A stretch of 64,000 nucleotides of DNA from Escherichia phage vB_EcoS_HASG4: sequence record NC_100331.1; one strand, 5' to 3'. Below the pieces are notes generated by a model that was given only the letters and a program-made list of their open reading frames with translations, did no database searches and was not told where the DNA came from. The position numbers were made by a program, and so were the translations under genes. Of this stretch, positions 32,247 to 63,189 are shown piece by piece. The stretch's first letter is position 1. The number at the start of each line of letters is the position of its first letter.

Positions 32247-32250
32247 AATT

Positions 32251-32596: not shown

Positions 32597-32602
32597 ATTG
32601 TT

Positions 32603-32680: not shown

Positions 32681-32684
32681 AATA

Positions 32685-33174: not shown

Positions 33175-33296
33175 GTTTGATTGTTTTCAGTGCAAGAGTC
33201 CGAGTCTTGGACACGACCGCTTCGCAAATACATAGGCAGCTTATCATGAGTCAGCACTTCCGAATTGCTAGCTCCGTGTTCTGCACTGAAATTTTA

Positions 33297-33644
33297 TTAG
33301 TTTAACCGTAAAGTATTATCTACTTCACCATTAATTGTTCGGCATTCCTCAGGGATTGCTGGTGTAGTCTTATACTCCCACCATTCAGAACCATCATATT
33401 CACCACGTTCTAACCAAGTTCCGTCAGTAAACCATACGTTACCATAAAGCAATTGTCCACCGAAACCAGAATCATATTTAAAGTCTAGATTATTTAGAAA
33501 ATCTTCAATATCTTTTTCTGTATAACCTACGGGTAATACCCAAACTTCTTTGTCCCCATAATAACCGAATTCTATCTTAATACACTTAACTTCAGACTTA
33601 GTATTCTTTAGGGCAAGTAACAACTCTTCTTTAGCATTAATCAT
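33297..33644 (-). CDS. hypothetical protein
   Basis: 115 aa. Confidence 0.5.
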   Translation of the reverse strand: MINAKEELLLALKNTKSEVKCIKIEFGYYGDKEVWVLPVGYTEKDIEDFLNNLDFKYDSGFGGQLLYGNVWFTDGTWLERGEYDGSEWWEYKTTPAIPEECRTINGEVDNTLRLN

Positions 33645-33670
33645 AGCATATTTCTCGTACTAGTTTAGTT

Positions 33671-33746
33671 TGGTACACCCACTAGGACTTGAACCTAGAA
33701 CCCTCCGCTTAAGAGGCGGTAGCTCTAACCATTGAGCTATGGATGT
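33671..33746 (-). tRNA. tRNA-Lys (CTT) candidate
   Basis: acceptor ACATCCA/TGGGTGT; D-stem GCTC/GAGC; loop CTCTTAA; T-arm CTAGGTTCAAGTCCTAG. Confidence 0.6.
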
Positions 33747-33929
33747 ATATTTGAAGAATCTCTCGTAAGAATTTCTTCAAATACCCTCTCCTGTGAAAAA
33801 GGGGGGTTTGCTTAATTATTGTGGCTAGGGCGCGGTAAAGTAGCTTTCTAGTCGGAAGCCCCAGAGCATATCCGTCTAAAGACCATATGTGACCTCCCCT
33901 ATCTTTACCTACTCTGTACCATAATTGTT

Positions 33930-34006
33930 TGGCGCGACCGATGGGATTTGAACCCACATTCCCTCCCGTGACAGGGGAGTACCATTACCAAGCCAGCCCC
34001 GGTCGC
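33930..34006 (-). tRNA. tRNA-Asp (GTC)
   Basis: anticodon arm CTCCC-CTGTCAC-GGGAG; T-arm TGGGTTCAAATCCCA. Confidence 0.8.
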
Positions 34007-34015
34007 ATAATTCAT

Positions 34016-34201
34016 TTACTCAGCTTTGAGTTTTTCAATAGCTGCATTAAGTTCTTTAAGAAACTCTTTTCGTACATTAAGACGATTAAGACTTACTAGT
34101 ATATCCTGTTTAAGTTCTTCGATGTATTTCTTCTCAACTTCAATATTGTTGATAGTGCTATCACGATGAACTTCTAACTGTGCAATTACATTCTTGGACA
34201 T
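34016..34201 (-). CDS. small coiled-coil protein
   Basis: 61 aa. Confidence 0.4.
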   Translation of the reverse strand: MSKNVIAQLEVHRDSTINNIEVEKKYIEELKQDILVSLNRLNVRKEFLKELNAAIEKLKAE

Positions 34202-34303
34202 GACTGTTTCCTCAGTTATTAATGAAAATGGTATCTGTGGCTGAATTCGATATCAGCAATGATAGCTGGTTGGCTACCGGTTTACTTAACTCTACACAGA
34301 ATT

Positions 34304-34386
34304 TGGCGGGCCGTGTAGGATTCGAACCTACGTTGTCTTTCGACATGGATTAACAGTCCACCGCCAAACCGCTTGGCTAACGACCC
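34304..34386 (-). tRNA. tRNA-Asn (GTT) candidate with extended variable arm
   Basis: 83 nt; anticodon arm GTGGA-CTGTTAA-TCCAT; ~13-nt variable hairpin GTC-GAAA-GAC. Confidence 0.65.
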
Positions 34387-34396
34387 TAAATTTATA

Positions 34397-34536
34397 TTGC
34401 TGACTAGGATTTTCACCTAGACGGAGTTAGCACCGTAGCGTGTAGCGGCATACCTCTCCAAACCGTGCCTCATCTTTCAATTACGGAGACAGTGTTCCTA
34501 CGCGTGCCTGAATTGATTTAACAATTCTTTCAGCAA
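34397..34536 (-). ncRNA. tRNA-like RNA of atypical length (~140 nt)
   Basis: 7-bp acceptor-like pairing TTGCTGA/TCAGCAA; T-arm-like hairpin CTAGG-TGAAAAT-CCTAG next to the 3' strand. Confidence 0.3.
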
Positions 34537-34538
34537 AT

Positions 34539-34614
34539 TGGACGACCGCATGAGATTTGAACTCACATAAAAAGGATTTGCAATCCTTCGCCTAAGCCAT
34601 TCAGCCAACGGTCG
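34539..34614 (-). tRNA. tRNA-Cys (GCA)
   Basis: anticodon arm AAGGA-TTGCAAA-TCCTT; discriminator U; T-arm GTGAGTTCAAATCTCAT. Confidence 0.8.
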
Positions 34615-34686
34615 ATTTATCTTGTTCTGTCATGTTGCTTCTCCAGTTCAATTTATGTAATTATTATTATACAGAACTTTTGGAAA

Positions 34687-34974
34687 CTAAGCAACTACAT
34701 TTTTTAAGAATTTGATGCCTTTCTTTTTCTTCTTATATTTCCACGTTAAGGGATTCTGTCGATTATGAACGCTTGAGATCTTCGTCTCGTCAAAGTTCTT
34801 CAATATCATGTAATCACAAGATAATTGTTCTAATGGAATGTGATCACCGTCAAAAGCATATACATAAGGCTGTTGACTAGCACGATAATGATAGACTTTG
34901 TTAATTCTACGTTTCAGCGACTTATCAGCGCAGTAAATAAAGAAGTTTTCAGGATGCATCAGCAGCTCCTTCAA
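34687..34974 (-). CDS. hypothetical protein
   Basis: 95 aa. Confidence 0.5.
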   Translation of the reverse strand: MKELLMHPENFFIYCADKSLKRRINKVYHYRASQQPYVYAFDGDHIPLEQLSCDYMILKNFDETKISSVHNRQNPLTWKYKKKKKGIKFLKNVVA

Positions 34975-34976
34975 TT

Positions 34977-35051
34977 TGGTGCACCCTGTTCGTATCGAAC
35001 GAACCTCTCAAGCTCTTCAGGCAAGCGCTAATCCATCTCAGCTAAAGGTGC
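34977..35051 (-). tRNA. tRNA-Phe (GAA) candidate
   Basis: loop CTGAAGA; T-arm GTTCGTTCGATACGAAC; anticodon stem imperfect. Confidence 0.65.
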
Positions 35052-35057
35052 AAATTT

Positions 35058-35128
35058 TGGCAGGGGTAAAGGTATTCGAAACCTTTTCATGGGTTTTGGA
35101 GGCCCATTTGCAACCTATGCGTACCCCA
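35058..35128 (-). tRNA. tRNA-Trp (CCA), short D-arm
   Basis: 71 nt; loop CTCCAAA and 3' end CCCCTGCCA resemble bacterial tRNA-Trp. Confidence 0.65.
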
Positions 35129-35137
35129 ATTGTTAAT

Positions 35138-35212
35138 TGGCACACCCACGGAGAATTGAACTCCGATTCTCAGATTGAAATCCTGATGTCCTGGCCATTA
35201 GACGATAGGTGC
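35138..35212 (-). tRNA. tRNA-Glu (TTC)
   Basis: D-arm GTCTAATGGCCAGGAC resembles bacterial tRNA-Glu; anticodon arm TCAGG-ATTTCAA-TCTGA. Confidence 0.75.
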
Positions 35213-35220
35213 ATTAAATT

Positions 35221-35308
35221 TGGTGGGCGTTAATGGAGTCGAACCACTCGAGTCGCAATGACCAGGGATTTACAATCCCCTCCGCTACCACTTACGGAAT
35301 AAACGCCC
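35221..35308 (-). tRNA. tRNA-Tyr (GTA)
   Basis: 88 nt type II; anticodon arm GGGGA-TTGTAAA-TCCCT. Confidence 0.8.
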
Positions 35309-35436
35309 ATATTTAGAAGCATTCAAATACTTGTTTAAACACTTTTAAATATGTTTCCAAATTAGATAACTATTATACCAAGTTTTAAGGCACTGAGCAA
35401 GTCAAATTTTGAAGAACTTGCTCAGTGCTGTATTAG

Positions 35437-35712
35437 TTAGTCGAACTTAGGAGTGACAGCTAAGGAGAACGGAAGTTCAAAAACTTCTTCCCCCTCATTA
35501 CTAACGGTAACTACACGACCTTTAAGTTCAGACATTAAAATATCAATATCAGCTTTTGCATCTGGAGCCATGCCAGCTTCAATACATTTAGCTTTAACTT
35601 CTGGTAAAAGCTCTACGTTATAGAGATAGAGCCACTCAATCTCACCTTCCCAGTCTTCCCAGGATTTGCAGATTGCACTTTCAATACCAGTTGCTACAAC
35701 ACGATTTTGCAT
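35437..35712 (-). CDS. hypothetical acidic protein
   Basis: 91 aa; promoter cassette upstream. Confidence 0.5.
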   Translation of the reverse strand: MQNRVVATGIESAICKSWEDWEGEIEWLYLYNVELLPEVKAKCIEAGMAPDAKADIDILMSELKGRVVTVSNEGEEVFELPFSLAVTPKFD

Positions 35713-35802
35713 TAATTAACTCCTTCATCAATTTATACAACTATTATATCAGAAATTTAAAGCAAAAGGCAAGTACATTTTTAAAAATTCTATTCGGAGG
35801 AG

Positions 35803-36009
35803 CTAAACTCCAGATTCTTCAGCTAAGTCTAGGCTAATAAGAGTTATAGCCATAATTGCTGCACCGTGTTCTTTTTCTCCGGTGTTTTTAGCAGAGTCTA
35901 TAATAGTCTTAATCTGTTCGTAATAGCCTTTTACTTCTTGTTCAATACCTGCCTCGGCTATCATGCCTTTAGTCATGATTCGTTGCATAGTAATTTCACG
36001 GTTAGCCAT
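35803..36009 (-). CDS. small hypothetical protein
   Basis: 68 aa. Confidence 0.4.
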   Translation of the reverse strand: MANREITMQRIMTKGMIAEAGIEQEVKGYYEQIKTIIDSAKNTGEKEHGAAIMAITLISLDLAEESGV

Positions 36010-36198
36010 GTTGTTTCTCCAGCTTCATTTTTAATAGTTTACAAATGAAATCAACGTCTTCATCTGTACCTAGATCTCTATCTTCAAGGGTTGCCTTGAA
36101 ATTTTTCGTTAGTTCCATAAGAATAACTTCCCTAGAACGACGTGTTGGCGGAGGTGGATGTCTATACATCTTAATTCCTTAATTTGGTAGGGATTATA

Positions 36199-36882
36199 TC
36201 ATCTACTTTTCTTAATACTTTTAGGATCTTTCCCTGTTAGGGACTTATACCTTTTCCTTAATCCAGTATCAGACAATCCTAGTTCTTTGGAGGCACGAAT
36301 CCAGGAATATTTAGATACCCAGTACTCTATTTGCTCCACAGTAATATCTGGATTTATAGTTATCTCTTTAGGAGTACATGATTTACAGTGTGTTGCTCTT
36401 GAACTAATTTCGCAGTGACAAATAGCACACGTATTTACAGTTCTTTCTGTATACCTGCCAATATTTTTGCCTGCATGAGTAGGTGTTAGTGCATGGCAAT
36501 TTGGACATAGGAGGGCTAAGTTATCCCATTCATTATTATAGTGATTTCCATCCTTGTGTTCGAGTTCTAAAGGAATTGGTTTGTCTAACCAACTTTCTAA
36601 GCCACAACTCTCACACTTATGTGGTTTTAGCCCCTCGTTAAGAATTTTATTCTTTAGTTTATAGGAAGAAATAGGGCTGCCGTTATATAAATACTCTGTT
36701 GCAGACTTATATTTATTATCATACTGCCTATTCGCAGGAATAACTACTATTCCTAGTTTTCCTAAATATGCTTCCAAAGTGTTCGAGGAGCAGGATAGCA
36801 TTCTTGCTATCTCTGCTTTAGATTTTCCCTGAGCTATCCACTGAGCTATTTCTTCCTTTCTATCTAGTATATCAGTTCTCAT
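36199..36882 (-). CDS. HNH homing endonuclease with N-terminal HTH
   Basis: 227 aa; CESCG...HKDGNHYNNEWDNLALLCPNCH zinc/HNH motif. Confidence 0.7.
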   Translation of the reverse strand: MRTDILDRKEEIAQWIAQGKSKAEIARMLSCSSNTLEAYLGKLGIVVIPANRQYDNKYKSATEYLYNGSPISSYKLKNKILNEGLKPHKCESCGLESWLDKPIPLELEHKDGNHYNNEWDNLALLCPNCHALTPTHAGKNIGRYTERTVNTCAICHCEISSRATHCKSCTPKEITINPDITVEQIEYWVSKYSWIRASKELGLSDTGLRKRYKSLTGKDPKSIKKSR

Positions 36883-36905
36883 AGTTTATGACTTTATAAT
36901 TAAGT

Positions 36906-36983
36906 TGGTGGCTCCCCGAGGATTCGAACCTACGTACCTTCCGGTTATGAGCCGGGTGCTCATACCATATGAGCTTGAGAACC
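36906..36983 (-). tRNA. tRNA with CAT anticodon (third copy)
   Basis: acceptor GGTTCTC/GGGAGCC; anticodon arm CCGG-CTCATAA-CCGG. Confidence 0.7.
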
Positions 36984-36989
36984 AAAATC

Positions 36990-37079
36990 TGGCGGAAGAA
37001 GTGGGAATCGAACCCACAAGGCTATATTTCAAACCGACAGATTAGCAATCTGCTGCAATACCGTTATGCTATTCTTCCG
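36990..37079 (-). tRNA. tRNA-Ser (GCT)
   Basis: 90 nt type II; starts GGAAGAA; anticodon arm GCAGA-TTGCTAA-TCTGT; promoter cassette abuts 5' end. Confidence 0.8.
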
Positions 37080-37099
37080 AATTTATAAGATATATTATA

Positions 37100-37618
37100 T
37101 TAGAAATTTAGCTTCATAGCAAGAAAATTTTTCAAGTTTTCGGTAGACATCTCATCCACATCTACGGGAGAAACAAATCCATTTAATTGTCTAGCAAACT
37201 TTTCACCAGCAGGATCATTGTCCCCAACAGCTACCAATTTAAAAGGTAGTAATTTCAGTTGCTTTAATAACGCTTTTCCTGGAGAAGAACCCAACATTGC
37301 CAGGGCTGGATAACCAGCATTATGTAACGCAACTGCCTTAAATACAGATTCAGCAATCAATACTACTTTTTCATCTCCATTGAGAGTTTCTAGTCCCCAT
37401 ACACACTGGGTAGTAGAATAAGTAAAATATTTAGCTTCAAAGGGGCACTTACCATGACCTTTTGGAGCAGAAGGATTATAAGTTTGATAGCCCCTCAACA
37501 TCCCAGAGAAGTCATACAACGGGACTGTTAGCCATCCTTCCGGACTTAACCAGCAATGATATTTATCTGTATCAAATCCTCTAGATAAGAGGTGCTGTGT
37601 TAGCTCATCAACATTCAT
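37100..37618 (-). CDS. TOPRIM-like domain protein
   Basis: ORF 37100-37669 trimmed (track start read through promoter cassette); IAESVF...GDNDPAGEKFA resembles TOPRIM. Confidence 0.5.
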   Translation of the reverse strand: MNVDELTQHLLSRGFDTDKYHCWLSPEGWLTVPLYDFSGMLRGYQTYNPSAPKGHGKCPFEAKYFTYSTTQCVWGLETLNGDEKVVLIAESVFKAVALHNAGYPALAMLGSSPGKALLKQLKLLPFKLVAVGDNDPAGEKFARQLNGFVSPVDVDEMSTENLKNFLAMKLNF

Positions 37619-37633
37619 ATTTGGTTCCTCTCT

Positions 37634-37658
37634 CAAATTTATAGATATATTATACAGA
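37634..37658 (-). promoter_or_regulatory. conserved early promoter-leader cassette (example)
   Basis: plus-strand caaatttatagatatattatacaga. Confidence 0.6.
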
Positions 37659-37793
37659 GAATTTAGCATTCAAGCAATCAAATTTTTTAACTTTTTAGAG
37701 GAAAATCATAGGGCACTTAAGGGTAGCAGATAAGTGGTGAGGACCAAAATTTGTGACCCAACTAAAAATCCGGGGGCAATTTTTAAAGACCCC

Positions 37794-37822
37794 TTGACAT
37801 TTTCGCGGGGGTAGTGTAAAGT
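37794..37822 (+). promoter_or_regulatory. host sigma70-type promoter (TTGACA-17-TAAAGT)
   Basis: ttgaca at 37794-37799, 17-bp spacer, taaagt at 37817-37822; differs from the phage cassette used by neighbours. Confidence 0.65.
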
Positions 37823-37884
37823 ATATGTTATGGATGAGTGATCAAAGAGACACACATTTTCTATATACTAGGAGGTGTCAAAAA

Positions 37885-54554: not shown

Positions 54555-56429
54555 ATGAATCGCAATGATGAACTAAAATACAAGGAAATGCAGTCCTTGA
54601 TTAGAAACTGCAAAGAAATTATTGAGGGTTCTGCTGATGAAGAGCTCCTCTTTAATAATGCGAATAAACCCTCTGAGCGTTTCCCTACACAAAGGGATAT
54701 GCTTGCAGGGGAATTGAGTAAATATCTGATTCTAGAAGAAATGCCAATTCAGATTCGAAATGCTCATATGATTGGCGATATTCACTTTCATGATGCTGAT
54801 TACGCTGCTTTAGGCATGACTAACTGTTGCCTAGTAGCCCTGGAAGATATGTTGAAAAATGGTATGAAAGTTGGTAATGCTGAAATTAGCACTCCAAACT
54901 CTATCACTACTGCGGCGGCTATTACTGCTCAGATTATCACTCAGGTTAGCTCCCATCAGTATGGTGGTACTTCTGTAGATCGCCTTGATGAAGTATTAGC
55001 CCCTTATGTTCGTAAGTCCTATGATAAAAATCATGCGTTTGCAAAACGTTGGACTAAGGATGAAGCTAAAGCATCTGTAATGGCTACGGAGATGACTGAA
55101 AAAGAAGTCTATGATGCTTGTCAGGGTCTAGAGTATGAAATCAATACGATGTTCAACTCTAATGGTCAGAGTCCATTTATTACCTTTGGTTTTGGTCTAG
55201 GAACTTCTTGGGAAGCACGTCTAGTACAGAAAGCAATACTGAAAGTACGTATGGATGGCTTAGGTATCAATAAACGTACAGCTATCTTTCCGAAACTGGT
55301 GTTTGTTCTGCGTGATGGCGTAAATATGAAGCCAGGGGATGTTAACTATGACATCAAGAAGTTAGCTATGAAATGTACTGCTGAACGTATGTATCCAGAC
55401 TATATCAGCTATGATAAGGTTGTGGAAGTTACTGGTGACTATAAAGTTTCTATGGGCTGCCGTTCATTCCTAGCTGCTGCAGAAGATGGTGAAACTGCCG
55501 GTCGTAATAACTTAGGTGTTGTTTCTGTAAACTTGCCTAGAATTGCTATCGAAGCTGAAGGAAATATTGATCTATTCTTTGATTTGCTTGAGCTACGTGT
55601 TGATACAGCGTTAAAAGCGTTGGAGTGGAGAGTTGATCGCTTAAAATACATTCAAGCTAAAGCCGCGCCCATCCTCTATATGTCAGGGGCCTTTGGGTTA
55701 CGCTTAGGGCCTGATGAATATGTATTCGATCATTTCTATAACCGTGCTTCTGTATCTCTGGGGTATATTGGTTGCCATGAAATGCTACAGTTCATGTTTG
55801 GCAAAGATGTAGATACAATGTCAGATACCTGTATTAAGTTTGTACAACGTGTTCTACAGTATATGCGGGATAGAGTGGACCAGAAGAAGGAAGAGACTCA
55901 GTTAGGTTATAGCCTGTATGCTACACCATCAGAATCCCTATGTGATCGCTTTTGTCGCCTAGACCGTGAATATTTCCCGGAACATGAAGATATTATGTCC
56001 AAAGGTTACTACACTAACTCACACCACCTCGATGTGGAGCGTAAGGTTGCTCCAAACGTGAAGTTTGATTATGAATCTAATTTTACTCCAATTGCATCTG
56101 GTGGGTGTATTTCCTACGTGGAATTACCAGACATGAAACGATTCCCGGATGCACTGGAATGGGTTATTAACTATGCTGCTAGTAAGGTTCATTACTTTGG
56201 TATTAATACTCCAGTGGATTCTTGTGGTAAATGTGGGTTCTTGGGTGAGACAGTAGCTTCTGAAGATGGATTTAAGTGCCCTATCTGTGGTAATCATGAC
56301 CCTGAAACTCTTGAAGTAACTCGTCGAGTTTGTGGGTATCTTGGAAATCCAGGCGCTCGTCCGTTTAACCCAGGCAAACAACATGAGGTTATGGGCAGGG
56401 TGAAACATCAGGATATTCGAGCTAAATAA
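54555..56429 (+). CDS. nrdD: anaerobic ribonucleotide reductase (class III) large subunit
   Basis: 624 aa; C-terminal glycyl-radical motif RVCGYLG and Cys-rich zinc site. Confidence 0.9.
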   Translation: MNRNDELKYKEMQSLIRNCKEIIEGSADEELLFNNANKPSERFPTQRDMLAGELSKYLILEEMPIQIRNAHMIGDIHFHDADYAALGMTNCCLVALEDMLKNGMKVGNAEISTPNSITTAAAITAQIITQVSSHQYGGTSVDRLDEVLAPYVRKSYDKNHAFAKRWTKDEAKASVMATEMTEKEVYDACQGLEYEINTMFNSNGQSPFITFGFGLGTSWEARLVQKAILKVRMDGLGINKRTAIFPKLVFVLRDGVNMKPGDVNYDIKKLAMKCTAERMYPDYISYDKVVEVTGDYKVSMGCRSFLAAAEDGETAGRNNLGVVSVNLPRIAIEAEGNIDLFFDLLELRVDTALKALEWRVDRLKYIQAKAAPILYMSGAFGLRLGPDEYVFDHFYNRASVSLGYIGCHEMLQFMFGKDVDTMSDTCIKFVQRVLQYMRDRVDQKKEETQLGYSLYATPSESLCDRFCRLDREYFPEHEDIMSKGYYTNSHHLDVERKVAPNVKFDYESNFTPIASGGCISYVELPDMKRFPDALEWVINYAASKVHYFGINTPVDSCGKCGFLGETVASEDGFKCPICGNHDPETLEVTRRVCGYLGNPGARPFNPGKQHEVMGRVKHQDIRAK

Positions 56430-56471
56430 GCTAATCAGCCAGGTTGCTAGTCGACCTGGCTTTTATTTTAT

Positions 56472-56500
56472 TTGCTTTCAGCTAAAAATTTATGTATAAT
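56472..56500 (+). promoter_or_regulatory. T5-type early promoter (TTGCTT-17-TATAAT) with conserved leader
   Basis: ttgctt 56472-56477, tataat 56495-56500, leader agatttataaatttgagagg. Confidence 0.7.
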
Positions 56501-56528
56501 AGATTTATAAATTTGAGAGGAGAAGACT

Positions 56529-56906
56529 ATGAAAGTAAAACCCTATATCATTGTTTCAACCTGTGGGAGCTACCAATTAGCAGTAGAAACCATAGAAGAA
56601 GCTATTTTTGCTGCTACGGGTGATTATTCTCGTCTTGAGGGGGTTGGTTATCCTAGCATTATGGGTAATTGGGTGGAAACTAATTTAGATGTTAATCCAT
56701 ATAATTCTGATTATGAAGATGAAGAAGAGGTACGGAATAACATTGAATTTGTATATAAAAGAATCTTAAGTATCTATGAGTATCAGGGCAGCCCTACTGA
56801 GTATGTGGATATTACTGAAGTAGCTAAGAAGCGCCTTAAATACGTTTATGCCAATTTTTCAAATGAAGACCTGGAAACAGTTGCAGTGGAGTTTAATAAT
56901 GACTAA
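56529..56906 (+). CDS. hypothetical acidic protein
   Basis: 125 aa; RBS GAGAGGAG. Confidence 0.55.
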   Translation: MKVKPYIIVSTCGSYQLAVETIEEAIFAATGDYSRLEGVGYPSIMGNWVETNLDVNPYNSDYEDEEEVRNNIEFVYKRILSIYEYQGSPTEYVDITEVAKKRLKYVYANFSNEDLETVAVEFNND

Positions 56907-57105
56907 GAATGTGAAACACCTTAAATATCGCTTAATCTATAACGGACGTATGGAAACAGAAGAGCTAGCTCAATTAGCTATTAACTCTAATGAGGTTATG
57001 GTGCGTGCGCTAGCAATTGAAAAGTTGCGGGCTTCTTATGAAAGTCGTATTATGGAACTAGAGGAGAAACTTTATGGCATTCTCGAAGCCGATGCTGCCC
57101 GATAA
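56899..57105 (+). CDS. hypothetical protein
   Basis: ORF 56848-57105 trimmed to ATG overlapping upstream stop. Confidence 0.45.
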   Translation: MTKNVKHLKYRLIYNGRMETEELAQLAINSNEVMVRALAIEKLRASYESRIMELEEKLYGILEADAAR

Positions 57106-57295
57106 TGGCTTAAATGCTGCACTGGAAAATGCATTGATGCAGCAGTGGGAGGCTGGATATAAGGATGGGGTTGAATCTTGTGCAAAAATAATGGATATTA
57201 TGGCTAATTCTGTAGTTGGGAAAGCCCATCCAGAAGTATCTGATATACTCCATAACCTTAGTAAAAACTTCAGAGAACAGGTGAAAAATGCGTAG
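57074..57295 (+). CDS. hypothetical protein
   Basis: 73 aa. Confidence 0.45.
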   Translation: MAFSKPMLPDNGLNAALENALMQQWEAGYKDGVESCAKIMDIMANSVVGKAHPEVSDILHNLSKNFREQVKNA

Positions 57296-58109
57296 ATTAA
57301 TTATTATTAGCGGTGCAGGTTTGAGTGTTGAAAGTGGTGTACGAGCCTTCCGTACTGATACTGCTAGTGGTAAAGCATTGTGGGATGATTATGACTTAGA
57401 AGAGGTATGTAATATTCATGCCTTTCGTGGTAATTTTTATCATAAAACTCATATGTTTTACAACAAGCGTCGTGAAGAGCTAAAAACTGTTGAACCCAAT
57501 CTTGCACACTTGCGTATTGGTGAATGGTATAAGAAATATCCAGGTCAAGTAGTAAACTTGACTACCAACGTTGATGACCTTATTGAGCGTGCTGGAGTAC
57601 CAAAAGAAGACATACTCCATATTCATGGGTACCTGAAAGAAATTATCGTAGAGCACGCATTCGACCAGACACATGATATTATTGATATTGGATATAGTTC
57701 TATTGACCCCGATGACTTTGACTGGGTTAAACCTAATGTAATTTTCTTTGGGGAACATGCTCCAGCGTACAAAACAATGTATGAGATTTTTGATGGCATT
57801 ACCAGTCAAGATATGATCATTGTGGTTGGTTGCTCTAACCAAGTAATTAACTTCTACTGGGAATTATTTCCTGTTCTTAATCTGACTGCTGCAAAACTTA
57901 TGGTAGTTAACTACTATGATAGTGCCCTAGCAGCGGAACCAGGCTATCAAGGTATGACTCGTAGTGAGATGTACCAGTTGGAAGAACGTGGGATCCCTTA
58001 CTGGAGTAAAGGTGCGGTGGATGCTTTTAGTGACCCGGGTTTTATTGCTCGTGTAGAAGCTCATCTAGAGGGTAGACCTTATATGCCGGGGAAACAAATA
58101 TGTCCATAA
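57288..58109 (+). CDS. Sir2-like (sirtuin family) protein
   Basis: 273 aa; N-terminal GAGLSVESGVRAFR matches Sir2 NAD-binding motif. Confidence 0.7.
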   Translation: MRRLIIISGAGLSVESGVRAFRTDTASGKALWDDYDLEEVCNIHAFRGNFYHKTHMFYNKRREELKTVEPNLAHLRIGEWYKKYPGQVVNLTTNVDDLIERAGVPKEDILHIHGYLKEIIVEHAFDQTHDIIDIGYSSIDPDDFDWVKPNVIFFGEHAPAYKTMYEIFDGITSQDMIIVVGCSNQVINFYWELFPVLNLTAAKLMVVNYYDSALAAEPGYQGMTRSEMYQLEERGIPYWSKGAVDAFSDPGFIARVEAHLEGRPYMPGKQICP

Positions 58110-58282
58110 TTAAATCTGTGTATACACACCCTGATGATATATTTGTATGGGCGGACGGTAGTTGGTGCTATCGCTGTGAGCTGTGGGAAATGGACTATAA
58201 ATCCGATGACTATGGTGTCATATATGTTGATACGGTTGAGTATGATACGTTCTTAGAAAGGGACAAAAGTGGAAATAAGTAA
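58100..58282 (+). CDS. small hypothetical protein
   Basis: 60 aa. Confidence 0.4.
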   Translation: MSIIKSVYTHPDDIFVWADGSWCYRCELWEMDYKSDDYGVIYVDTVEYDTFLERDKSGNK

Positions 58283-58775
58283 TACTCCGATTATTTTTCT
58301 AGACATTGATGGAGTGCTCAATTCGAGCATCTCCCACCATCATGCACCTGATGATGAAAAGATTTTCTTTGGAAGTGACTGGGTTTTCAAACCGCTTCTC
58401 AAGGCTTTTCAGGACTTTATTCGTCCTTCTCCGATAATGATTGTTGGAGTATCCTCATGGTTCTCTGTCAGGAATGAGGTGGAGAACGTTCACATTATGA
58501 CCGGATTAGGTCTTATCGATCGTTTTCTAGGTACAACGGATTTTACGGGGGGTGGATTATCTAGGGGTAATTCTGTTCTTCGTTTCGTTGAAAAGCATAA
58601 GCTCAAACATTGGTGTGTGCTGGATGACGCTGGTGCTATGATGTATCAGTATCCAACAGTTATAGTCAATGGTAGGACTGGGATAAATCTTCAAGATTTA
58701 AAAGCTGTTAGCTATATGCTAGAATTTAGCCCAGATCTTGAAATGTGTAAATCCTTACAACAATTTAAGGTGTAA
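58269..58775 (+). CDS. HAD-like phosphatase candidate
   Basis: 168 aa; N-terminal FLDIDGVLN (DxDG motif). Confidence 0.55.
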   Translation: MEISNTPIIFLDIDGVLNSSISHHHAPDDEKIFFGSDWVFKPLLKAFQDFIRPSPIMIVGVSSWFSVRNEVENVHIMTGLGLIDRFLGTTDFTGGGLSRGNSVLRFVEKHKLKHWCVLDDAGAMMYQYPTVIVNGRTGINLQDLKAVSYMLEFSPDLEMCKSLQQFKV

Positions 58776-58777
58776 AT

Positions 58778-59206
58778 ATGTTCAATAATGTATTCTCTAA
58801 AGAAGCTAACCCAATTTTGGTTAACTTTTGGCGTACTCTCCCGGCTAGCCTGTATAATGAGGCTATTAACTCCTTGAAAATATGGTGTGAGAATAACGAA
58901 ATCTCCTTTGCTTTTAAAGATGATATTGATGAGGCTCCCTGTATTGGTTTAATTGTTCAGGTAGAGGAGGGTCTTGAAGAAATTGTCGGCTGGAAAGAGT
59001 TAGATGAAATGGGCTTAGTTTTTGCGTTAAACTATAAGCTGTTTATGCCTGCTAAGCATCGCCTCGTTGTTAACTATAAAACTAGTGAATCTCCTGGTTT
59101 TCAGGTTAATGAACGTTACGGTTGGTCTTACTCACCGGAAGAAGTGAATGAGGGGATTCAGAAACTTCGACGTTTCGGGTATATGATCCCAGGTTTAACT
59201 GCTTAA
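58778..59206 (+). CDS. hypothetical protein (paralog family member 1)
   Basis: 142 aa; shares ELDW/EMGL..ALN..LF.P pattern with next ORF. Confidence 0.55.
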   Translation: MFNNVFSKEANPILVNFWRTLPASLYNEAINSLKIWCENNEISFAFKDDIDEAPCIGLIVQVEEGLEEIVGWKELDEMGLVFALNYKLFMPAKHRLVVNYKTSESPGFQVNERYGWSYSPEEVNEGIQKLRRFGYMIPGLTA

Positions 59207-59215
59207 GGAGGCAGA

Positions 59216-59608
59216 ATGGAACAAGTATATTGGCGTCAGATTGACCCTAGTTTGGTGAAACGTGCGGAGAAGCTGCTACAACGTTGGTTGGGGGTAAGAC
59301 AAGCCTCCTTCACTTTTCCGGAGCAGCAAATAGACGATCCTTGTGTTGGTGTTTTCCTATCAGGCTACGCTAGGGAATGGGAATTGGATTGGAATGAATT
59401 GTCTGCTATGGGTTTAATTGTTGCACTAAATTTCTCTTTGTTCCATCCCCGTGGTTTGGCCATATGTCGTGTGCCTGATGACGGTTGTTCGCCCCATCTT
59501 TTACAGATGGAAGATGATATTTGGGAGTACACTCCAGATATTCTCAAAGAAGCTAAAGAACAATTAAATCGTGTTGGAATCTATGTTCTGGGGCTAAATG
59601 ATGAATAA
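59216..59608 (+). CDS. hypothetical protein (paralog family member 2)
   Basis: 130 aa; RBS AAGGAGG. Confidence 0.55.
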   Translation: MEQVYWRQIDPSLVKRAEKLLQRWLGVRQASFTFPEQQIDDPCVGVFLSGYAREWELDWNELSAMGLIVALNFSLFHPRGLAICRVPDDGCSPHLLQMEDDIWEYTPDILKEAKEQLNRVGIYVLGLNDE

Positions 59609-59795
59609 GGGATTTTGGAAAATAAAAGGTAAAATTTCTAAGTGGAATACTACAGGGAAAATTAGTAAGTCTCTAGAGATAGAGATAGCTAGAATGTTTA
59701 CTGATCCTGATTTTGATATAGGAAAACTAAGTAAAATAGATGCTAAAAAAGTAGATAAGTATATAGAAGAGATTAGAAGTATTTTAAGTGTCTAA
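59598..59795 (+). CDS. small hypothetical protein
   Basis: 65 aa. Confidence 0.4.
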   Translation: MMNKGFWKIKGKISKWNTTGKISKSLEIEIARMFTDPDFDIGKLSKIDAKKVDKYIEEIRSILSV

Positions 59796-59804
59796 TACAC
59801 ATAA

Positions 59805-59828
59805 CCGAGTCATTTTGGCTCGGTTTTA
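59805..59828 (+). terminator. rho-independent terminator
   Basis: ccgagtcattttggctcgg followed by tttt. Confidence 0.7.
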
Positions 59829-59871
59829 TCCGTACTCAAGACCAATGATAGCATTCTCTTTAAAAATTTAC

Positions 59872-59900
59872 TTGCACGATGCTCAAAATCTTGATATAAT
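59872..59900 (+). promoter_or_regulatory. sigma70-type promoter (TTGCAC-17-TATAAT)
   Basis: ttgcac 59872-59877, tataat 59895-59900. Confidence 0.6.
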
Positions 59901-60399
59901 AGTTATATTGAATTGAGAGACATTAGTAAAAATTGATTTTGCTAATTTTTCTTGTTTACAATCCGCGATACGGAACAGTTAGGCTGCCCCATTAAGGGTT
60001 GTTTTAACTGTTACGTGTTAGTTTTTAAACAAATAATTAATAGAATACTTAGCGATCTACACCCCGTAGGAACCCTGGTAAGGCCTCGAAGCAACCTAGT
60101 GTGAGGTGGTTGTGAAGTGAGACGGGAAGAGTGAAAAACTCTGAGAAGTGATGACGTAAGGTATACTGCATCTAGTATGAGCTAGTACATGAAGCATTAG
60201 GTGAGCAAATCTGGCTTAGCGGCCATCCTCAAGGATTTGTGCGGTATAGTGAAGCGGCAGTGTAGCGTGAAAGTGGAAGTTGCCACCCCACTTCAGTATT
60301 TGCAATTAATTTGTTGAGAAATTGACAGTAACAGTTGTTCTATTCTTTCTGAATAGTCCTAAAGAAAACTTATTTCATTTCCAACACAGGAGTATTGTT

Positions 60400-63189
60400 G
60401 TGTTTTCAATCCTACAAGGTCATGCAGGATTTCATCGCGATTTAGCCACAGGCAATTGGCGAGAAGTTAAAGCAGAAGACTATCTTTTTGCTAAAAGATT
60501 TTCCTCAAAGCATCCTGAAGGTAAACCAGCTTCAATGCCCTTCAAGTTTGATGTAATTGACGAAATTGATCCTCAAACCCTAGTAGAAATGCTTCCTCTT
60601 ATGAGACGTTTAACGTCTGACCCTCATATCGTTGCGGTACGAGGTCGATGTCTTGCACCTAAAAATAATGTGCGACGTAAGAAGGGCAACTTTAATGTAT
60701 CTAATCCAAGTCATATAATCGCAATGGATGTGGATGGTATTGTAGATACAGGAGGTTGTAACAAGTTTGATCTTGTTGGTATGGCTCGACATATTATTAG
60801 GATGTTAAATAGTATTAGTGAGGATATGTTTCCTCTTGATGCAGGGTTTATTGCTCATGCATCATCTTCGGCTGGCCTAAAACCAGGTATCCGAATGCAC
60901 TTAATACTAGAATCTAATGTTAAAGTTACACAGGGTCAGATCAAGTTCTTATTTACATCTATCAACGAAAGTAGTAGACAAAAGTATGGCTTTGATATTG
61001 CCGACTTAGCTTATTACTCCTCCGTACAGCTTCATTACTTTGCAGATCCTTTATTTATTGATGGTATAGTCGATCCGTTTAAAGCGGAGGGTGCTTCACG
61101 TCTGGTATTTGTTAAGGGTTCGAAGGTAAATTTGCCTAATAATCTAGTTGACTATGAAACAACTAGAGGTGAGTTTAAGGAGGAGTTCTATTCTTTACTC
61201 GACCAAATTAAAGGTAAAAAAGCTGCCTCTGATAAAGTAGAGGAAACTATCAGCGAACTAGAAGAAGCTGAGGATGGAGTGTATCTACGTATTATTCCAA
61301 AGCTATATCACCGAGCGCTAGAGGATGGAGTAGATTTTGGTTGGCTAGAAAAAGAAATCCGCCCAGCTTTATCAGAATATATTGCAACTAAAGATAATAG
61401 CCGTAATATTCAGGATTATTTCAATAACGGACGGAAGCAGGCATTAAAAGCCTTTGTGAATAACTCTAAGCGTGAGATCCCTGAAGTATTAAAAGGTATC
61501 CCCCTTAAAAAGCTAGAAACTAATTCACTAGAGACCGACAACTTCTTGAAATTAAATACTGTACCACCAGAAGGTTATATGACTTTTGTAAAAGCAAGTC
61601 TAGGTACAGGTAAAACTACGGCGGTTGTGCGTTGGTTAGATTCAGGAGTTATTAAGGGTAATTTCTTAGCAATTACCAATACTCGAGCACTGGTATCTTC
61701 AAATGCTAAGAAATTTAGTGCAGGACAATATGATAAGTCTGTAGATATGCTTAATTTTAAGCGTGGTGCTATTGACCGTATGTCCACAACTATTCACTCT
61801 TTGCATAAGTTCAAGAGTTTTATTGGTCAAATTGATGCAATCTTTATCGATGAATGTGATGCAGTAATGAATGACCTATTATTCGCCCCAGTTGTTAAGC
61901 AACGTCGTGAGTGTATTCAGGTTCTTCGTGATATTCTTGCAACTGCAAAAATCATTATACTATCAGATGGTGATATTAGTGCTGAAACAATTGAAGCATA
62001 TGGTTCTTTAATTGAGTTCGATAAACCAGTAGCATTTTACAATCATCACCGTAAAATGCTGTCAAAAGCTCATGCTTATGAGTTCCCTGATGAGTCCAGT
62101 ATTTGGGTTGCACTTCAGACTTCTCTAGAGATGGGTGAGAAATCTATTCTAGTATCTGATTGTGGCCCTGATGAGCTTAATGAGAAGGGTATGGCACTAC
62201 GTCGTAATACGGGTGCATTAGTTAAGGAAATCCATTCAAACTCTACCTCAGATGTGGATATTCGACGTATTCTGGATTACACAACTAATGAGTTAATTGA
62301 TCAACAAATTGATTGCTTATTATGTAGTCCATCCGTAACGAGTGGAGTTGACTTCAACTATTTTGATAACGTATTTGTTATTACTAGAACCAGTAATCAA
62401 GCGCCAAACATGCGTTTCCAAGCAATCAGGCGCGACCGTGGTGCTCAGAATATCTATTATTTTATTGATAAATCCACTAGTGGATTCTCCGCAGGTTCTG
62501 AACAGTATAACATTGATGAGGGTTGGCTGGAGTTAGCACAGCAATTATACGCACGTCGCAGGGAGCTGGAATCTAGGAACTATACTAGTACTTTACGTTA
62601 TTACTTGCTTGATCAGGGTGCAACTATTGATATTTTCAGCGAAAGCTGGGGAACTATTGAAGGTGCTGGTAAAGAGTACACAGAAGAGCGAATTAAAGCT
62701 ATTCTACATTCAACTCCGGATTATTGTGCTCCACGTCATGCGGATGCGTATGAAGCTAAGCTACTTCTTGTTCGCTATTATCATCTTGAGTCTATTAAAG
62801 ATGTAACAGTTGAGCATGTTGAACAATATATCAAGGATAAACCGAATGATCGAGCAGCATTCTTCCATAAAATGCACGCGATGTTCTGGGAAGATATTAA
62901 GAAGTGTTCAAATGTCACTATCAAACCTTTCATAGAAGCTCTGAAAGGTAAGAAGAAAGATTTCTTCCTTAAAACAGGTCAGAGTGCTAACCCAAAATAT
63001 GCGAGAATGTATCTTGGTATGATGGGTATTGGTAAGGATATGAACACTGAAAATATTGTAGACTGGTACAGAACCTATTGTAAAATCGAGTGTATGCCAA
63101 TTCCTTATAAGTTCATGACTGACGAGGAAAAACATATGCATGATGAAGCAATGTCAGAGCTAGGTGCTAGAAATGACAGTGAAGAATAA
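60400..63189 (+). CDS. SF2-type helicase-like protein (replication-origin-binding-like)
   Basis: start set at GTG 60400 after AGGAG (track uses TTG 60322); Walker A GTGKTT, Walker B IFIDECD; ~929 aa. Confidence 0.75.
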   Translation: MFSILQGHAGFHRDLATGNWREVKAEDYLFAKRFSSKHPEGKPASMPFKFDVIDEIDPQTLVEMLPLMRRLTSDPHIVAVRGRCLAPKNNVRRKKGNFNVSNPSHIIAMDVDGIVDTGGCNKFDLVGMARHIIRMLNSISEDMFPLDAGFIAHASSSAGLKPGIRMHLILESNVKVTQGQIKFLFTSINESSRQKYGFDIADLAYYSSVQLHYFADPLFIDGIVDPFKAEGASRLVFVKGSKVNLPNNLVDYETTRGEFKEEFYSLLDQIKGKKAASDKVEETISELEEAEDGVYLRIIPKLYHRALEDGVDFGWLEKEIRPALSEYIATKDNSRNIQDYFNNGRKQALKAFVNNSKREIPEVLKGIPLKKLETNSLETDNFLKLNTVPPEGYMTFVKASLGTGKTTAVVRWLDSGVIKGNFLAITNTRALVSSNAKKFSAGQYDKSVDMLNFKRGAIDRMSTTIHSLHKFKSFIGQIDAIFIDECDAVMNDLLFAPVVKQRRECIQVLRDILATAKIIILSDGDISAETIEAYGSLIEFDKPVAFYNHHRKMLSKAHAYEFPDESSIWVALQTSLEMGEKSILVSDCGPDELNEKGMALRRNTGALVKEIHSNSTSDVDIRRILDYTTNELIDQQIDCLLCSPSVTSGVDFNYFDNVFVITRTSNQAPNMRFQAIRRDRGAQNIYYFIDKSTSGFSAGSEQYNIDEGWLELAQQLYARRRELESRNYTSTLRYYLLDQGATIDIFSESWGTIEGAGKEYTEERIKAILHSTPDYCAPRHADAYEAKLLLVRYYHLESIKDVTVEHVEQYIKDKPNDRAAFFHKMHAMFWEDIKKCSNVTIKPFIEALKGKKKDFFLKTGQSANPKYARMYLGMMGIGKDMNTENIVDWYRTYCKIECMPIPYKFMTDEEKHMHDEAMSELGARNDSEE

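What the first reader, a model, noticed from the sequence alone, without database searches (positions are those of the whole stretch)
57288..59608. Sir2-like protein clustered with a HAD-like phosphatase and a pair of small paralogs downstream of nrdD
GAGLSVESGVRAFR is a Sir2 NAD-binding signature. Sir2 domains in bacterial immunity deplete NAD+; a phage-encoded Sir2, followed by a DxDG phosphatase and two paralogous ~135-aa proteins, could instead be an NAD+/ADP-ribose processing or salvage module.
Basis: partly seen in the sequence, partly recalled or inferred. Interest (0 to 1): 0.6.

Follow-up and report, generated by a model that had tools for sequence, protein, structure and literature searches.

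The report
Phage T5-type sirtuin and phosphatase genes

Summary
The window is Escherichia phage vB_EcoS_EASG3, a T5-like phage. Window 57288-58109 encodes a 273-aa sirtuin with a complete NAD+ pocket and the catalytic Asn, Asp and His. Window 58269-58775 encodes a 168-aa HAD phosphatase of family HAD_SAK_2. Window 58778-59206 and 59216-59608 encode two DUF7415 paralogs, 31% identical to each other.

The sirtuin is closest in sequence and fold to E. coli CobB and SIRT5 (class III deacylases). It matches no defence-type SIR2 model and has lost the zinc ribbon. About 976 phage records carry a homolog, usually annotated "Sir2".

Iyer et al. 2022 (PMC9503650) already described this sirtuin + "Swiss-army-knife" HAD neighbourhood in the close relative phage SP15. 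They predicted a KptA/Tpt1-like, NAD+-dependent RNA 2'-phosphate removal.

I re-derived the supporting context. Orthologs at 62% identity sit in operons of metallophosphoesterase, Rnl1-type RNA ligase, cREC, kinase and Sir2. A distant megaphage also pairs an Rnl1 ligase with Sir2.

Against this, T5-like phages show no detectable RNA ligase or kinase. Phage DT57C has lost Sir2 and HAD together, so the pair is dispensable. DUF7415 has no known fold relative and is only loosely linked. NAD+ salvage is not supported. Function remains untested.

The parts
56437..56461 (+). Intrinsic terminator after nrdD. It marks the upstream boundary of the transcription unit.
   Evidence: 10-bp stem with 6 GC pairs followed by a T-run. 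It is also annotated in the GenBank record.
56529..56906 (+). 125-aa ORF of unknown function (phrog_11748). Its homolog sits directly upstream of Sir2 in Erwinia phage KEY.
   Evidence: phrog_11748 at E 6.9e-50 and no Pfam hit. A 58%-identical homolog lies between HAD and Sir2 in L005.
56899..57105 (+). Small ORF of unknown function (phrog_5236).
   Evidence: It is conserved at 83-96% identity in T5-like loci.
57074..57295 (+). 73-aa ORF of unknown function (phrog_5827). It is highly variable between T5-like phages.
   Evidence: Identity ranges from 30% to 100% across otherwise near-identical loci.
57288..58109 (+). Zinc-less sirtuin of the class III (CobB/SIRT5-like) type. It belongs to a phage-specific clade. 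Gene name in T5 annotation: sir2.
   Evidence: PF02146 at E 1.8e-23. Invariant in 23 homologs: GAGxSxxSG..FR, Y58-x-x-R61, N94, D96, H113-G114, F154-x-E156, G181-x-S183, N208. Best PDB sequence match is E. coli CobB 1s5p at E 4.5e-18. The AF2 model has pLDDT 88.5, and Foldseek's top hit is CobB with TM 0.82. There are no Cys between H113 and F153.
58100..58282 (+). 60-aa ORF of unknown function (phrog_5116) between Sir2 and HAD.
   Evidence: phrog_5116 at E 7.9e-29. It is missing in some T5-like loci and was deleted together with Sir2 and HAD in DT57C.
58269..58775 (+). Small stand-alone HAD-superfamily phosphatase of family HAD_SAK_2.
   Evidence: PF18143 at E 1e-19. The four HAD motifs are invariant. 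No relative of solved structure was found by sequence.
58778..59206 (+). DUF7415 paralog A (T5.106 homolog), function unknown.
   Evidence: PF24187 at E 5.3e-36. Homologs were found only in T5-like phages at this sensitivity.
59216..59608 (+). DUF7415 paralog B (T5.107 homolog), function unknown. It has a compact alpha/beta fold with no solved relative.
59598..59795 (+). 65-aa ORF of unknown function (phrog_29527), the last gene of the unit.
   Evidence: It is present in only a minority of T5-like loci.
59804..59824 (+). Weak intrinsic terminator ending the unit, before the origin-binding helicase gene.
   Evidence: Annotated in the record. The sequence is CCGAGTCATTTTGGCTCGG followed by TTTTAT. 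My consensus scan did not detect it.

Best explanation
This is an accessory early-gene module of T5-like phages.

Its core is an NAD+-consuming sirtuin that evolved from a CobB-like deacylase but has lost the zinc ribbon. The sirtuin is paired with a small HAD phosphatase.

The most likely job is repair of damaged RNA ends, chiefly tRNAs cut or blocked by host anticodon nucleases or toxins, rather than protein deacetylation or NAD+ salvage.

Proposed mechanism (inferred, not shown):
1. A phosphate oxygen on the RNA (a 2'-phosphate) attacks C1'' of NAD+ in the sirtuin active site and expels nicotinamide.
2. The conserved His then promotes attack by the ADP-ribose 2''-OH. This releases clean 2'-OH RNA plus ADP-ribose cyclic phosphate.
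3. This is the same two-step logic as Tpt1/KptA and as normal sirtuin deacylation.
4. The HAD enzyme either removes the remaining terminal RNA phosphate, like the HAD domain of T4 Pnkp, or dephosphorylates the ADPR-phosphate by-product.

What is shown: gene content, intact active sites, clade membership and the gene neighbourhoods. What is inferred: substrate and chemistry.

The DUF7415 paralogs and the small ORFs are co-transcribed neighbours of unknown role.
For: 1. The active site is complete and invariant in 23 phage homologs. The fold is a sirtuin fold. The protein is therefore an enzyme that uses NAD+.

2. It deviates from canonical deacylases in exactly the elements that hold a peptide substrate:
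- No zinc-ribbon Cys.
- The V-Y-P motif of CobB is V-I-N here.
- The Gly of the FGE loop is variable.
- TQN is replaced by TTN.
- It scores far below every NCBIfam CobB cutoff, 98 against 243 bits.

3. Orthologs at 62-66% identity in roughly 145-kb Klebsiella and Raoultella phages lie in tightly packed operons. The order is metallophosphoesterase, Rnl1-type RNA ligase (PF09511), cREC, AAA_33 kinase, SIR2. This holds in 11 of 55 viral loci.

4. A distant megaphage contig (Sir2 36% identical) also has an Rnl1-type ligase 1.2 kb upstream of Sir2.

5. HAD_SAK_2 adjoins Sir2 in 28 of 55 loci. In Erwinia phage KEY it adjoins Sir2 with the gene order rearranged. A weaker HAD lies 3 kb from Sir2 in an unrelated contig, L057.

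6. A Prevotellaceae contig carries HAD_SAK_2, Metallophos, a zinc-ribbon protein, SIR2 and an ADP-ribosylglycohydrolase in a row.

7. Sir2 and HAD were lost together in DT57C.

8. The same conclusion was published from independent comparative genomics (PMC9503650 section 3.7.3).

9. The Tpt1 two-step mechanism is as described in PMC11417386 (abstract).
Against: - No sirtuin has ever been shown to act on RNA, and there are no biochemical data for any member of this clade.
- The nearest characterised relatives are all protein lysine deacylases. The Y-x-x-R motif that binds acidic acyl-lysines is retained.
- T5-like genomes have no detectable RNA ligase or polynucleotide kinase. tblastn of the Mydo-type proteins against the window plus the record from position 63000 to 112000 found only a distant metallophosphoesterase. 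A self-contained heal-and-seal pathway is therefore missing.
- A 2'-OH/3'-OH end is not a substrate for the host ligase RtcB (established knowledge).
- HAD_SAK_2-like genes in 51 other phage loci have no Sir2 nearby and have heterogeneous neighbours. The 'RNA' label of this HAD rests on the Pfam family name and on the literature.
- Conserved gene order within one phage family is partly shared descent, not independent evidence.
Confidence: 0.4

Rival explanations
1. It is a conventional CobB-like protein lysine deacylase (deacetylase or desuccinylase). The phage uses it to reprogram host or phage proteins, for example by re-activating acetyl-CoA synthetase or removing inhibitory acylation. The HAD is an unrelated neighbouring phosphatase.
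For: - The best sequence and fold matches are E. coli CobB, Sir2Af1/2 and SIRT5.
- NCBIfam hits are all deacylase models.
- The catalytic His, Asn and Asp are invariant. So are the class III Y58-x-x-R61 pair, F154 and E156 of the FGE loop, and V186.
- This is the standard database annotation.
- It is also the reading offered for Vibrio phage sirtuins (PMC5107563).
Against: - The zinc ribbon is lost, the V-Y-P motif has changed and the FGE glycine is variable. These alter the peptide-binding cleft.
- Scores fall far below the equivalog cutoffs.
- The repeated, independent neighbourhood with RNA ligase, kinase and phosphoesterase genes has no obvious rationale for a protein deacylase.
- Sir2 and HAD were lost jointly in DT57C.
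Confidence: 0.3
2. It is an NAD+ hydrolase or an ADP-ribosyltransferase used in conflict. It might lower or reshape the NAD+ pool, modify a host protein or nucleic acid, destroy NAD-derived immune signals, or exclude superinfecting phages. The HAD would trim the phosphorylated ADPR products.
For: - Zinc-less sirtuin domains are typical of NADase effectors (established knowledge; PMC9503650).
- The gene shows arms-race-like mosaicism. In four T5-like loci the flanks are 90-98% identical while Sir2 is only 51% identical. Sir2 lineages of T5-like phages interleave with those of unrelated phages.
- The gene is dispensable.
- ADPR-related genes lie nearby in some relatives: an ADP-ribosylglycohydrolase next to Sir2 in L162, a nucleoside deoxyribosyltransferase-like gene next to Sir2 in L058, and NADAR genes in the T5-like and Ro1 genomes.
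Against: - No similarity to any defence SIR2 model.
- The top 50 fold matches are all deacylases.
- T5-like phages depend on NAD+ for their own NAD-dependent DNA ligase. Some relatives even carry the NAD+-rebuilding NARP3 pathway. Wholesale NAD+ depletion would therefore be self-harming.
- Retention of the catalytic His argues for a two-step transfer rather than plain hydrolysis. This last point is a weak inference.
Confidence: 0.15
3. One reading: the four genes form an NAD+ or ADP-ribose salvage module that protects the phage against NAD+-depleting immunity.
For: - The HAD could in principle dephosphorylate an ADPR-phosphate. Phages do use such a step, though with a Macro-domain enzyme (bioRxiv 10.64898/2026.01.28.702374).
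- NAD+ supply clearly matters to T5-like phages.
Against: - The cluster holds no NAD+-synthesising enzyme.
- A sirtuin breaks NAD+ rather than making it.
- The known reconstitution pathways NARP1, NARP2 and NARP3 use unrelated proteins.
- DUF7415 has no enzyme-like conserved residues and no fold relative.
Confidence: 0.05

Closest known systems
Phage sirtuin-centred predicted RNA-repair neighbourhoods, type 3 ('Escherichia phage SP15' type), Iyer, Burroughs, Anantharaman & Aravind 2022 (PMC9503650)
   Same: The same sirtuin clade sits next to the same 'Swiss-army-knife-like' HAD phosphatase in a T5-like phage. The SP15 protein E0157_105 is 92% identical to the window's DUF7415 paralog A.
   Different: Nothing substantive; this is the described arrangement. 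That paper does not discuss the DUF7415 pair, the small ORFs, or the joint loss in DT57C. The function is a prediction only.
E. coli CobB and human SIRT5 (class III sirtuin deacylases)
   Same: The fold matches (TM 0.82 to CobB). The GAGxS..FR NAD loop is shared. So are the Y-x-x-R pair, the N/D of the nicotinamide pocket, the catalytic His, and the FGE-loop Phe and Glu.
   Different: - Only 24% identity.
- No CxxC...CxxC zinc ribbon.
- TQN becomes TTN, and V-Y-P becomes V-I-N.
- There are two variable insertion sites.
- It scores below all CobB family cutoffs.
Tpt1/KptA RNA 2'-phosphotransferase
   Same: [quoted passage not shown] So is the genomic company of RNA ligase, kinase and phosphoesterase genes in related phages.
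   Different: The fold is unrelated; Tpt1 is an ADP-ribosyltransferase fold. The similarity is a functional analogy that has not been tested.
T4 Pnkp + Rnl1 tRNA repair pathway
   Same: The phosphatase is of the HAD type with a DxDG motif, as in the Pnkp phosphatase domain. An Rnl1-type ligase and a P-loop kinase accompany the orthologous sirtuin in Mydo-type phages.
   Different: No ligase or kinase is detectable in the T5-like genome. T4 needs no sirtuin. The HAD here is a stand-alone 168-aa protein of a different subfamily (PF18143).
Defence-associated SIR2 NADases (ThsA, DSR1/2, SIR2-HerA, KomC)
   Same: Sirtuin superfamily, NAD+ as substrate, and no zinc ribbon.
   Different: There are no hits to PADLOC models. 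The Pfam family differs: PF02146, not the defence-type family. The protein is a single domain with no sensor domain, and it is encoded by the phage.

Membership tests
Sirtuin (Sir2) superfamily, Pfam PF02146 | Rossmann NAD+-binding domain with the GAGxSxxSGIPxFR loop | tested here: met
   GAGLSVESGVRAFR at residues 9-22. PF02146 at E 1.8e-23 covering model positions 1-178 of 180. G9, A10, G11, S13, S16, G17, F21 and R22 are invariant in 23 homologs.
Sirtuin (Sir2) superfamily, Pfam PF02146 | Catalytic His (HG) plus Asn/Asp of the nicotinamide pocket (TQNxD) | tested here: met
   H113-G114, N94 and D96 are invariant and align to the CobB equivalents. The Gln is replaced by Thr (T93) in most zinc-less relatives.
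Sirtuin (Sir2) superfamily, Pfam PF02146 | Sirtuin fold | tested here: met
   The AF2 model has pLDDT 88.5. Foldseek gives 285 PDB hits at E<=1e-3, and the top 50 are all sirtuins, with CobB at TM 0.82.
Sirtuin (Sir2) superfamily, Pfam PF02146 | Zinc-binding CxxC...CxxC module in the small domain | tested here: not met
   There are no Cys in the 40 residues between H113 and F153. The same holds for the nearest roughly 30 cluster representatives. More distant relatives have 4 Cys.
CobB-type NAD-dependent protein deacylase (NCBIfam equivalogs) | Score above the curated family cutoff | tested here: not met
   The best score is 98.2 bits against a cutoff of 243 (NF001753). For NF040867 it is 87.8 against 320.
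CobB-type NAD-dependent protein deacylase (NCBIfam equivalogs) | Class III Tyr-x-x-Arg acyl-recognition pair and peptide-binding FGE / V-Y-P elements | tested here: inconclusive
   Y58 and R61 are invariant, and F154 and E156 are kept. However, the FGE Gly is variable and V-Y-P is V-I-N.
CobB-type NAD-dependent protein deacylase (NCBIfam equivalogs) | NAD+-dependent deacylation of acyl-lysine | not testable with these tools
   This needs an enzyme assay.
Defence-type SIR2 NADases (Thoeris ThsA, DSR, SIR2-HerA etc.) | Match to defence-system SIR2 profiles, and fusion or pairing with a sensor domain | tested here: not met
   No PADLOC family matches at E<=0.01. The protein is a single domain, and none of its neighbours matches a defence model.
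HAD phosphatase superfamily, HAD_SAK_2 (PF18143) | Four HAD motifs: DxDx[TV], S/T, K/R, DD | tested here: met
   PF18143 at E 1e-19 over model positions 1-138 of 139. D12, D14, S62-S63, R99 and D119-D120 are invariant in homologs that are 42-96% identical to it.
Phage sirtuin + SAK-like HAD neighbourhood (PMC9503650, type 3) | A sirtuin of the phage clade encoded next to a SAK-like HAD in a proteobacterial phage | tested here: met
   (28 of 55 loci). The described prototype SP15 is a close relative.
Tpt1/KptA RNA 2'-phosphotransferase | KptA/Tpt1 (ADP-ribosyltransferase-fold) domain | tested here: not met
   Pfam finds only SIR2 in this protein, and the fold is a sirtuin fold. Any likeness is functional analogy only.
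Tpt1/KptA RNA 2'-phosphotransferase | NAD+-dependent removal of RNA 2'-phosphate | not testable with these tools
   This needs an assay with 2'-PO4 RNA and NAD+.
Phage NAD+ reconstitution pathways (NARP1, NARP2, NARP3) | Adps+Namat, or NadV+NMNAT, or PnuC+NadR-like genes | tested here: not met
   None of the nine proteins of the unit matches such families. No such domains are noted in the record's annotation of positions 1-112000.

The most novel reading that the evidence does not exclude
The T5-type Sir2 is the first RNA-directed sirtuin: a CobB-derived enzyme re-tooled to use NAD+ on a modified RNA end. It would act with a small HAD phosphatase and host factors to restore tRNAs attacked by bacterial immunity.

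Two candidate reactions are open:
- Removing a 2'-phosphate, as Tpt1 does.
- A reading of my own that nothing here excludes: stripping an acyl or phosphoryl block from the tRNA 3' end, such as those made by GNAT or RelA-SpoT-type toxins.

The second reading would explain why T5-like phages need no ligase of their own.
Probability: 0.3. Interest if true: 0.75.

Novelty: already known. Interest (0 to 1): 0.3.

Why it matters
Roughly 2% of sequenced phages carry this sirtuin (976 of 50,697 records), yet no member has been assayed.

If the published RNA-repair prediction is right, three things follow:
- It would be a new reaction class for sirtuins.
- It would be a second, convergent solution to Tpt1 chemistry.
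- It would add a layer to the tRNA-centred arms race in which T5-like phages already take part. This window alone carries 23 tRNA genes.

If instead it is a plain deacylase or an NADase, it bears on how phages handle host acylation or the contested NAD+ pool.

Either way the question is cheap to settle. As a scan finding, though, it re-discovers an annotated and published feature.

Tried and rejected
- Defence-type SIR2: rejected. No PADLOC hits.
- HAD against solved structures: no hits, either as a single sequence or as a profile.
- Search for an RNA ligase, kinase or cREC in the T5-like genome by tblastn with the Mydo-type proteins: nothing except a distant metallophosphoesterase at 16260-16853.
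- My suspicion that the 161-aa protein next to Sir2 in L042, L048 and L052 is a NADAR: not supported by Pfam or BLAST.
- The idea that the small ORFs at 57074-57295 and 58100-58282 co-vary with Sir2 alleles, and so might be partners: rejected. Their variants combine freely with either Sir2 type.
- Neighbours of HAD_SAK_2-like genes in 47 other phage loci: heterogeneous. The families seen twice were PhoH, Glycos_transf_2, HNH, PTH2 and AAA_30; the rest, mostly replication genes, appeared once. No RNA-repair theme emerged.
- V5-like contexts: only DUF7277/DUF7275 and proteins with no hits. The pol-beta-like GS...DxD motif in DUF7277 is my reading of the alignment and is untested.
- Literature: no paper was found with experimental data on any phage sirtuin of this clade, or on T5 genes T5.102-T5.107.
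- The Burroughs & Aravind 2016 paper that defines SAK proteins is not held in the library.
- A structure for the HAD could not be predicted with an alignment.
Full report
**Identity of the window**

The region 56400-60400 is 100% identical to Escherichia phage vB_EcoS_EASG3. This is MK373799.1, family Demerecviridae, genus Tequintavirus, a T5-like phage. The region is about 90% identical to many other T5-like phages of Escherichia and Salmonella. In that record the genes are all 'hypothetical protein'. Other records annotate it as 'Sir2-like protein' or 'NAD-dependent deacetylase'.

**Check of the observation**

All four genes exist as described.

Sir2 is at 57288-58109.
- It matches Pfam SIR2 end to end (E 1.8e-23) and phrog_2162 (E 2.9e-117).
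- In an alignment of 23 phage homologs that are 55-80% identical to it, the following are invariant:
  - the NAD loop G9-A10-G11-x-S13..S16-G17..F21-R22;
  - Y58-x-x-R61-R62;
  - T92-T93-N94-V95-D96;
  - H113-G114;
  - K148-P149..F153-F154-x-E156;
  - G181-x-S183;
  - N208.

The HAD is at 58269-58775. It matches PF18143 (HAD_SAK_2) at E 1e-19. All four HAD motifs are invariant in homologs that are 42-96% identical to it.

The two downstream proteins are paralogs at 31% identity. Both belong to DUF7415.

It runs from the terminator after nrdD (56437-56461) to a weak terminator at 59804-59824. It contains nine ORFs, including a 60-aa ORF between Sir2 and HAD.

**What kind of sirtuin**

- By sequence, the best solved relatives are E. 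coli CobB (1s5p, E 4.5e-18), Sir2Af1/2 and SIRT5.
- The AlphaFold model (pLDDT 88.5) matches CobB best (TM 0.82 on the target). The top 50 Foldseek hits are all deacylase sirtuins.
- No profile of a defence-system protein matches.
- It is nevertheless not a CobB equivalog, scoring 98 bits against a cutoff of 243.
- It has no Cys in the segment where sirtuins bind zinc.
- CobB's V-Y-P is V-I-N here.
- The Gly of the FGE loop varies within the clade.
- TQN is TTN.

An exhaustive search of 1.84 billion cluster representatives found 3,045 relatives at E<=1e-3. Of these, 44 are at E<=1e-30. The nearest ones lack the zinc Cys, and more distant ones have CxxC...CxxC. The Y-x-x-R pair is kept almost everywhere, so it marks class III ancestry and not a phage-specific trait.

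**Distribution and dispensability**

- 976 of 50,697 phage records hold a homolog at E<=1e-10. They include T5-like, rV5-like, phi92-like, Mydo-like, KVP40-like and jumbo phages.
- Phage Shivani lacks the gene (PMC4342426).
- In DT57C two deletions removed Sir2 residues 1-169, and the Sir2 C-terminus plus the 60-aa ORF plus the first roughly 130 residues of HAD. A 90-aa chimera is left, annotated 'sir2 (defective)'. The DUF7415 pair is intact.
- The Sir2-HAD pair is therefore accessory and was lost as a unit. DUF7415 is separable from it.

**Context in relatives**

Among 55 viral contigs encoding a member of the clade, with ±7 kb inspected:

| Loci | Content near Sir2 |
|---|---|
| 28 | Sir2 + HAD_SAK_2 + DUF7415 (T5-like) |
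| 3 | Sir2 + DUF7415, no HAD (divergent T5-like) |
| 11 | Metallophosphoesterase, Rnl1-type RNA ligase and AAA_33 kinase; 8 of these also have cREC |
| 4 | V5-like DUF7277/DUF7275 protein upstream |
| 9 | Other: 6 with none of these, 3 with partial content (a truncated contig with the kinase only, one with the metallophosphoesterase only, and L057) |

- In Raoultella phage Ro1 the genes are packed in the order ligase, cREC, kinase, SIR2, ATP-dependent DNA ligase.
- Erwinia phage KEY is T5-like but lacks nrdD and DUF7415 at this locus. Its order is HAD, a homolog of the 125-aa ORF, then Sir2. The HAD-Sir2 link thus survives rearrangement.
- A 608-kb megaphage contig whose Sir2 is only 36% identical has an Rnl1-type ligase 1.2 kb upstream.
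- A distant 86-kb contig has a weak HAD 3 kb from Sir2 and a metallophosphoesterase 6 kb away.
- Among 53 bacterial loci with HAD_SAK_2-like genes, two have a sirtuin within 4 kb. One is a Prevotellaceae operon: bpMoxR, vWA, HAD_SAK_2, Metallophos, zinc ribbon, SIR2, ADP-ribosylglycohydrolase. These two cases are anecdotal.
- In the other direction, 51 phage loci with HAD_SAK_2-like genes outside T5-like phages have no Sir2 or DUF7415 nearby. Their neighbours are mixed.

**Prior knowledge**

Iyer et al. [quoted passage not shown]
1. Jumbo phages, with 2H, Nudix, cREC and PIN genes.
2. V5/Mydo type, with a T4-like tRNA ligase, cREC, a kinase, MazG and a calcineurin-like phosphoesterase.
3. [quoted passage not shown]

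They propose that the sirtuin acts like KptA in removing 2'-phosphates. SP15 is a close relative of this phage: its DUF7415 protein is 92% identical. The T5 Sir2-like gene has been noted since the T5 genome paper, as cited in PMC5107563. I found no experimental study of any member.

**Mechanism**

The RNA-repair reading is the best supported at about 0.4. The sirtuin-RNA ligase association recurs in phage groups whose sirtuins are 62% and 36% identical to this one. The elements that normally clamp a peptide substrate have changed. The Tpt1 reaction is also chemically parallel to the sirtuin reaction: a nucleophilic oxygen attacks C1'' of NAD+, and the ribose 2''-OH then attacks the adduct, helped by the conserved His. 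This last parallel is an inference from established mechanisms.

The main weakness is specific to T5-like phages. No RNA ligase or polynucleotide kinase is detectable in the window or in the record from position 63000 to 112000. A full heal-and-seal route would therefore need host enzymes, or the true substrate is an RNA end that needs no ligation.

The rivals are:
- a plain CobB-like deacylase, about 0.3;
- an NADase or ADP-ribosyltransferase used in conflict, about 0.15;
- NAD+ salvage, about 0.05, which is contradicted by gene content.

**DUF7415**

**Verdict**

It is partly unsupported: salvage, and the four genes as one module. The feature is already annotated and published, so novelty is low. 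The open and cheaply testable question is the enzyme's true substrate.

Noticed in passing
L127 (DT57C) 2980-3252; window 58269-58775: Annotation artefact. phrog_18062 is labelled 'Sir2' but matches the HAD protein (E 6e-58), and matches Sir2 only at residues 168-215. DT57C carries a 90-aa deletion chimera made of the Sir2 C-terminal part fused to the HAD C-terminus. That chimera fits this profile. It likely explains why many phage records annotate two 'Sir2' genes, one of which is really the HAD phosphatase.
   Followed up: yes
L039, L041, L046, L047 around 7001-7850, compared with window 57288-58109: In four T5-like contigs the flanking genes (PhoH, nrdD, origin-binding protein) are 90-98% identical to the window, but Sir2 is only about 51% identical. 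In a rough tree, Sir2 lineages of T5-like phages interleave with those of 140-154 kb phages. Two insertion sites come and go. This indicates allele replacement or mosaicism at this locus.
   Followed up: partly
window 46238-46687 (-): A NADAR-domain protein (PF08719, E 2.3e-21), a family linked to ADP-ribose derivatives, is encoded about 10 kb from Sir2. Raoultella phage Ro1 also has a NADAR gene about 6 kb from its Sir2 (L003 12608 onward).
   Followed up: partly
window 16260-16853 (-): A 197-aa calcineurin-like phosphoesterase (Metallophos_2, E 4.6e-5). It is weakly related (26% identity) to the metallophosphoesterase that sits in the Rnl1-kinase-Sir2 operons of Mydo-type phages. Here it lies 40 kb away. 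A lambda-type Ser/Thr phosphatase is next to it (17137-18012).
   Followed up: partly
window 27832-41271 (-): An array of 23 tRNA genes interspersed with small ORFs, including one called tRNA-Ser with anticodon ACT at 41198-41271. This is typical of T5-like phages and relevant to tRNA-targeting host defences.
   Followed up: no
L162 891-7611 (Prevotellaceae MAG contig CADCBZ010000005.1): A bacterial gene row: bpMoxR AAA+ ATPase, vWA protein, HAD_SAK_2, Metallophos, zinc-ribbon protein, SIR2, ADP-ribosylglycohydrolase. It is a cellular, conflict-system-like setting that combines the same HAD family with a sirtuin.
   Followed up: partly
L059 4582-7705 (608-kb viral contig) and L058 6721-8195 (279-kb viral contig): In the megaphage contig L059 the order is Rnl1-type RNA ligase, arginase-family protein, a 109-aa ORF, then Sir2. 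In the jumbo contig L058 the order is DUF4326, Sir2, then a nucleoside 2-deoxyribosyltransferase-like protein.
   Followed up: partly
L004 2806-3744, L043 3747-4673 and relatives (V5-like phages): A DUF7277+DUF7275 protein lies four genes upstream of Sir2. It begins with G-S...D-x-D, which resembles a polymerase-beta-type nucleotidyltransferase motif. This is my reading of the alignment only.
   Followed up: no
L061 2951-4904 (record 65950-67903, just beyond the window end): The phage's NAD-dependent DNA ligase is encoded as two separate ORFs about 6 kb downstream of Sir2. The phage's own replication therefore also draws on NAD+.
   Followed up: no
window coordinates versus MK373799.1: Window coordinates are offset by +39 from the GenBank record over 27.8-59.8 kb. 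Window position 1 would therefore fall before the record's first base. The window probably comes from a differently started copy of the same genome.
   Followed up: no
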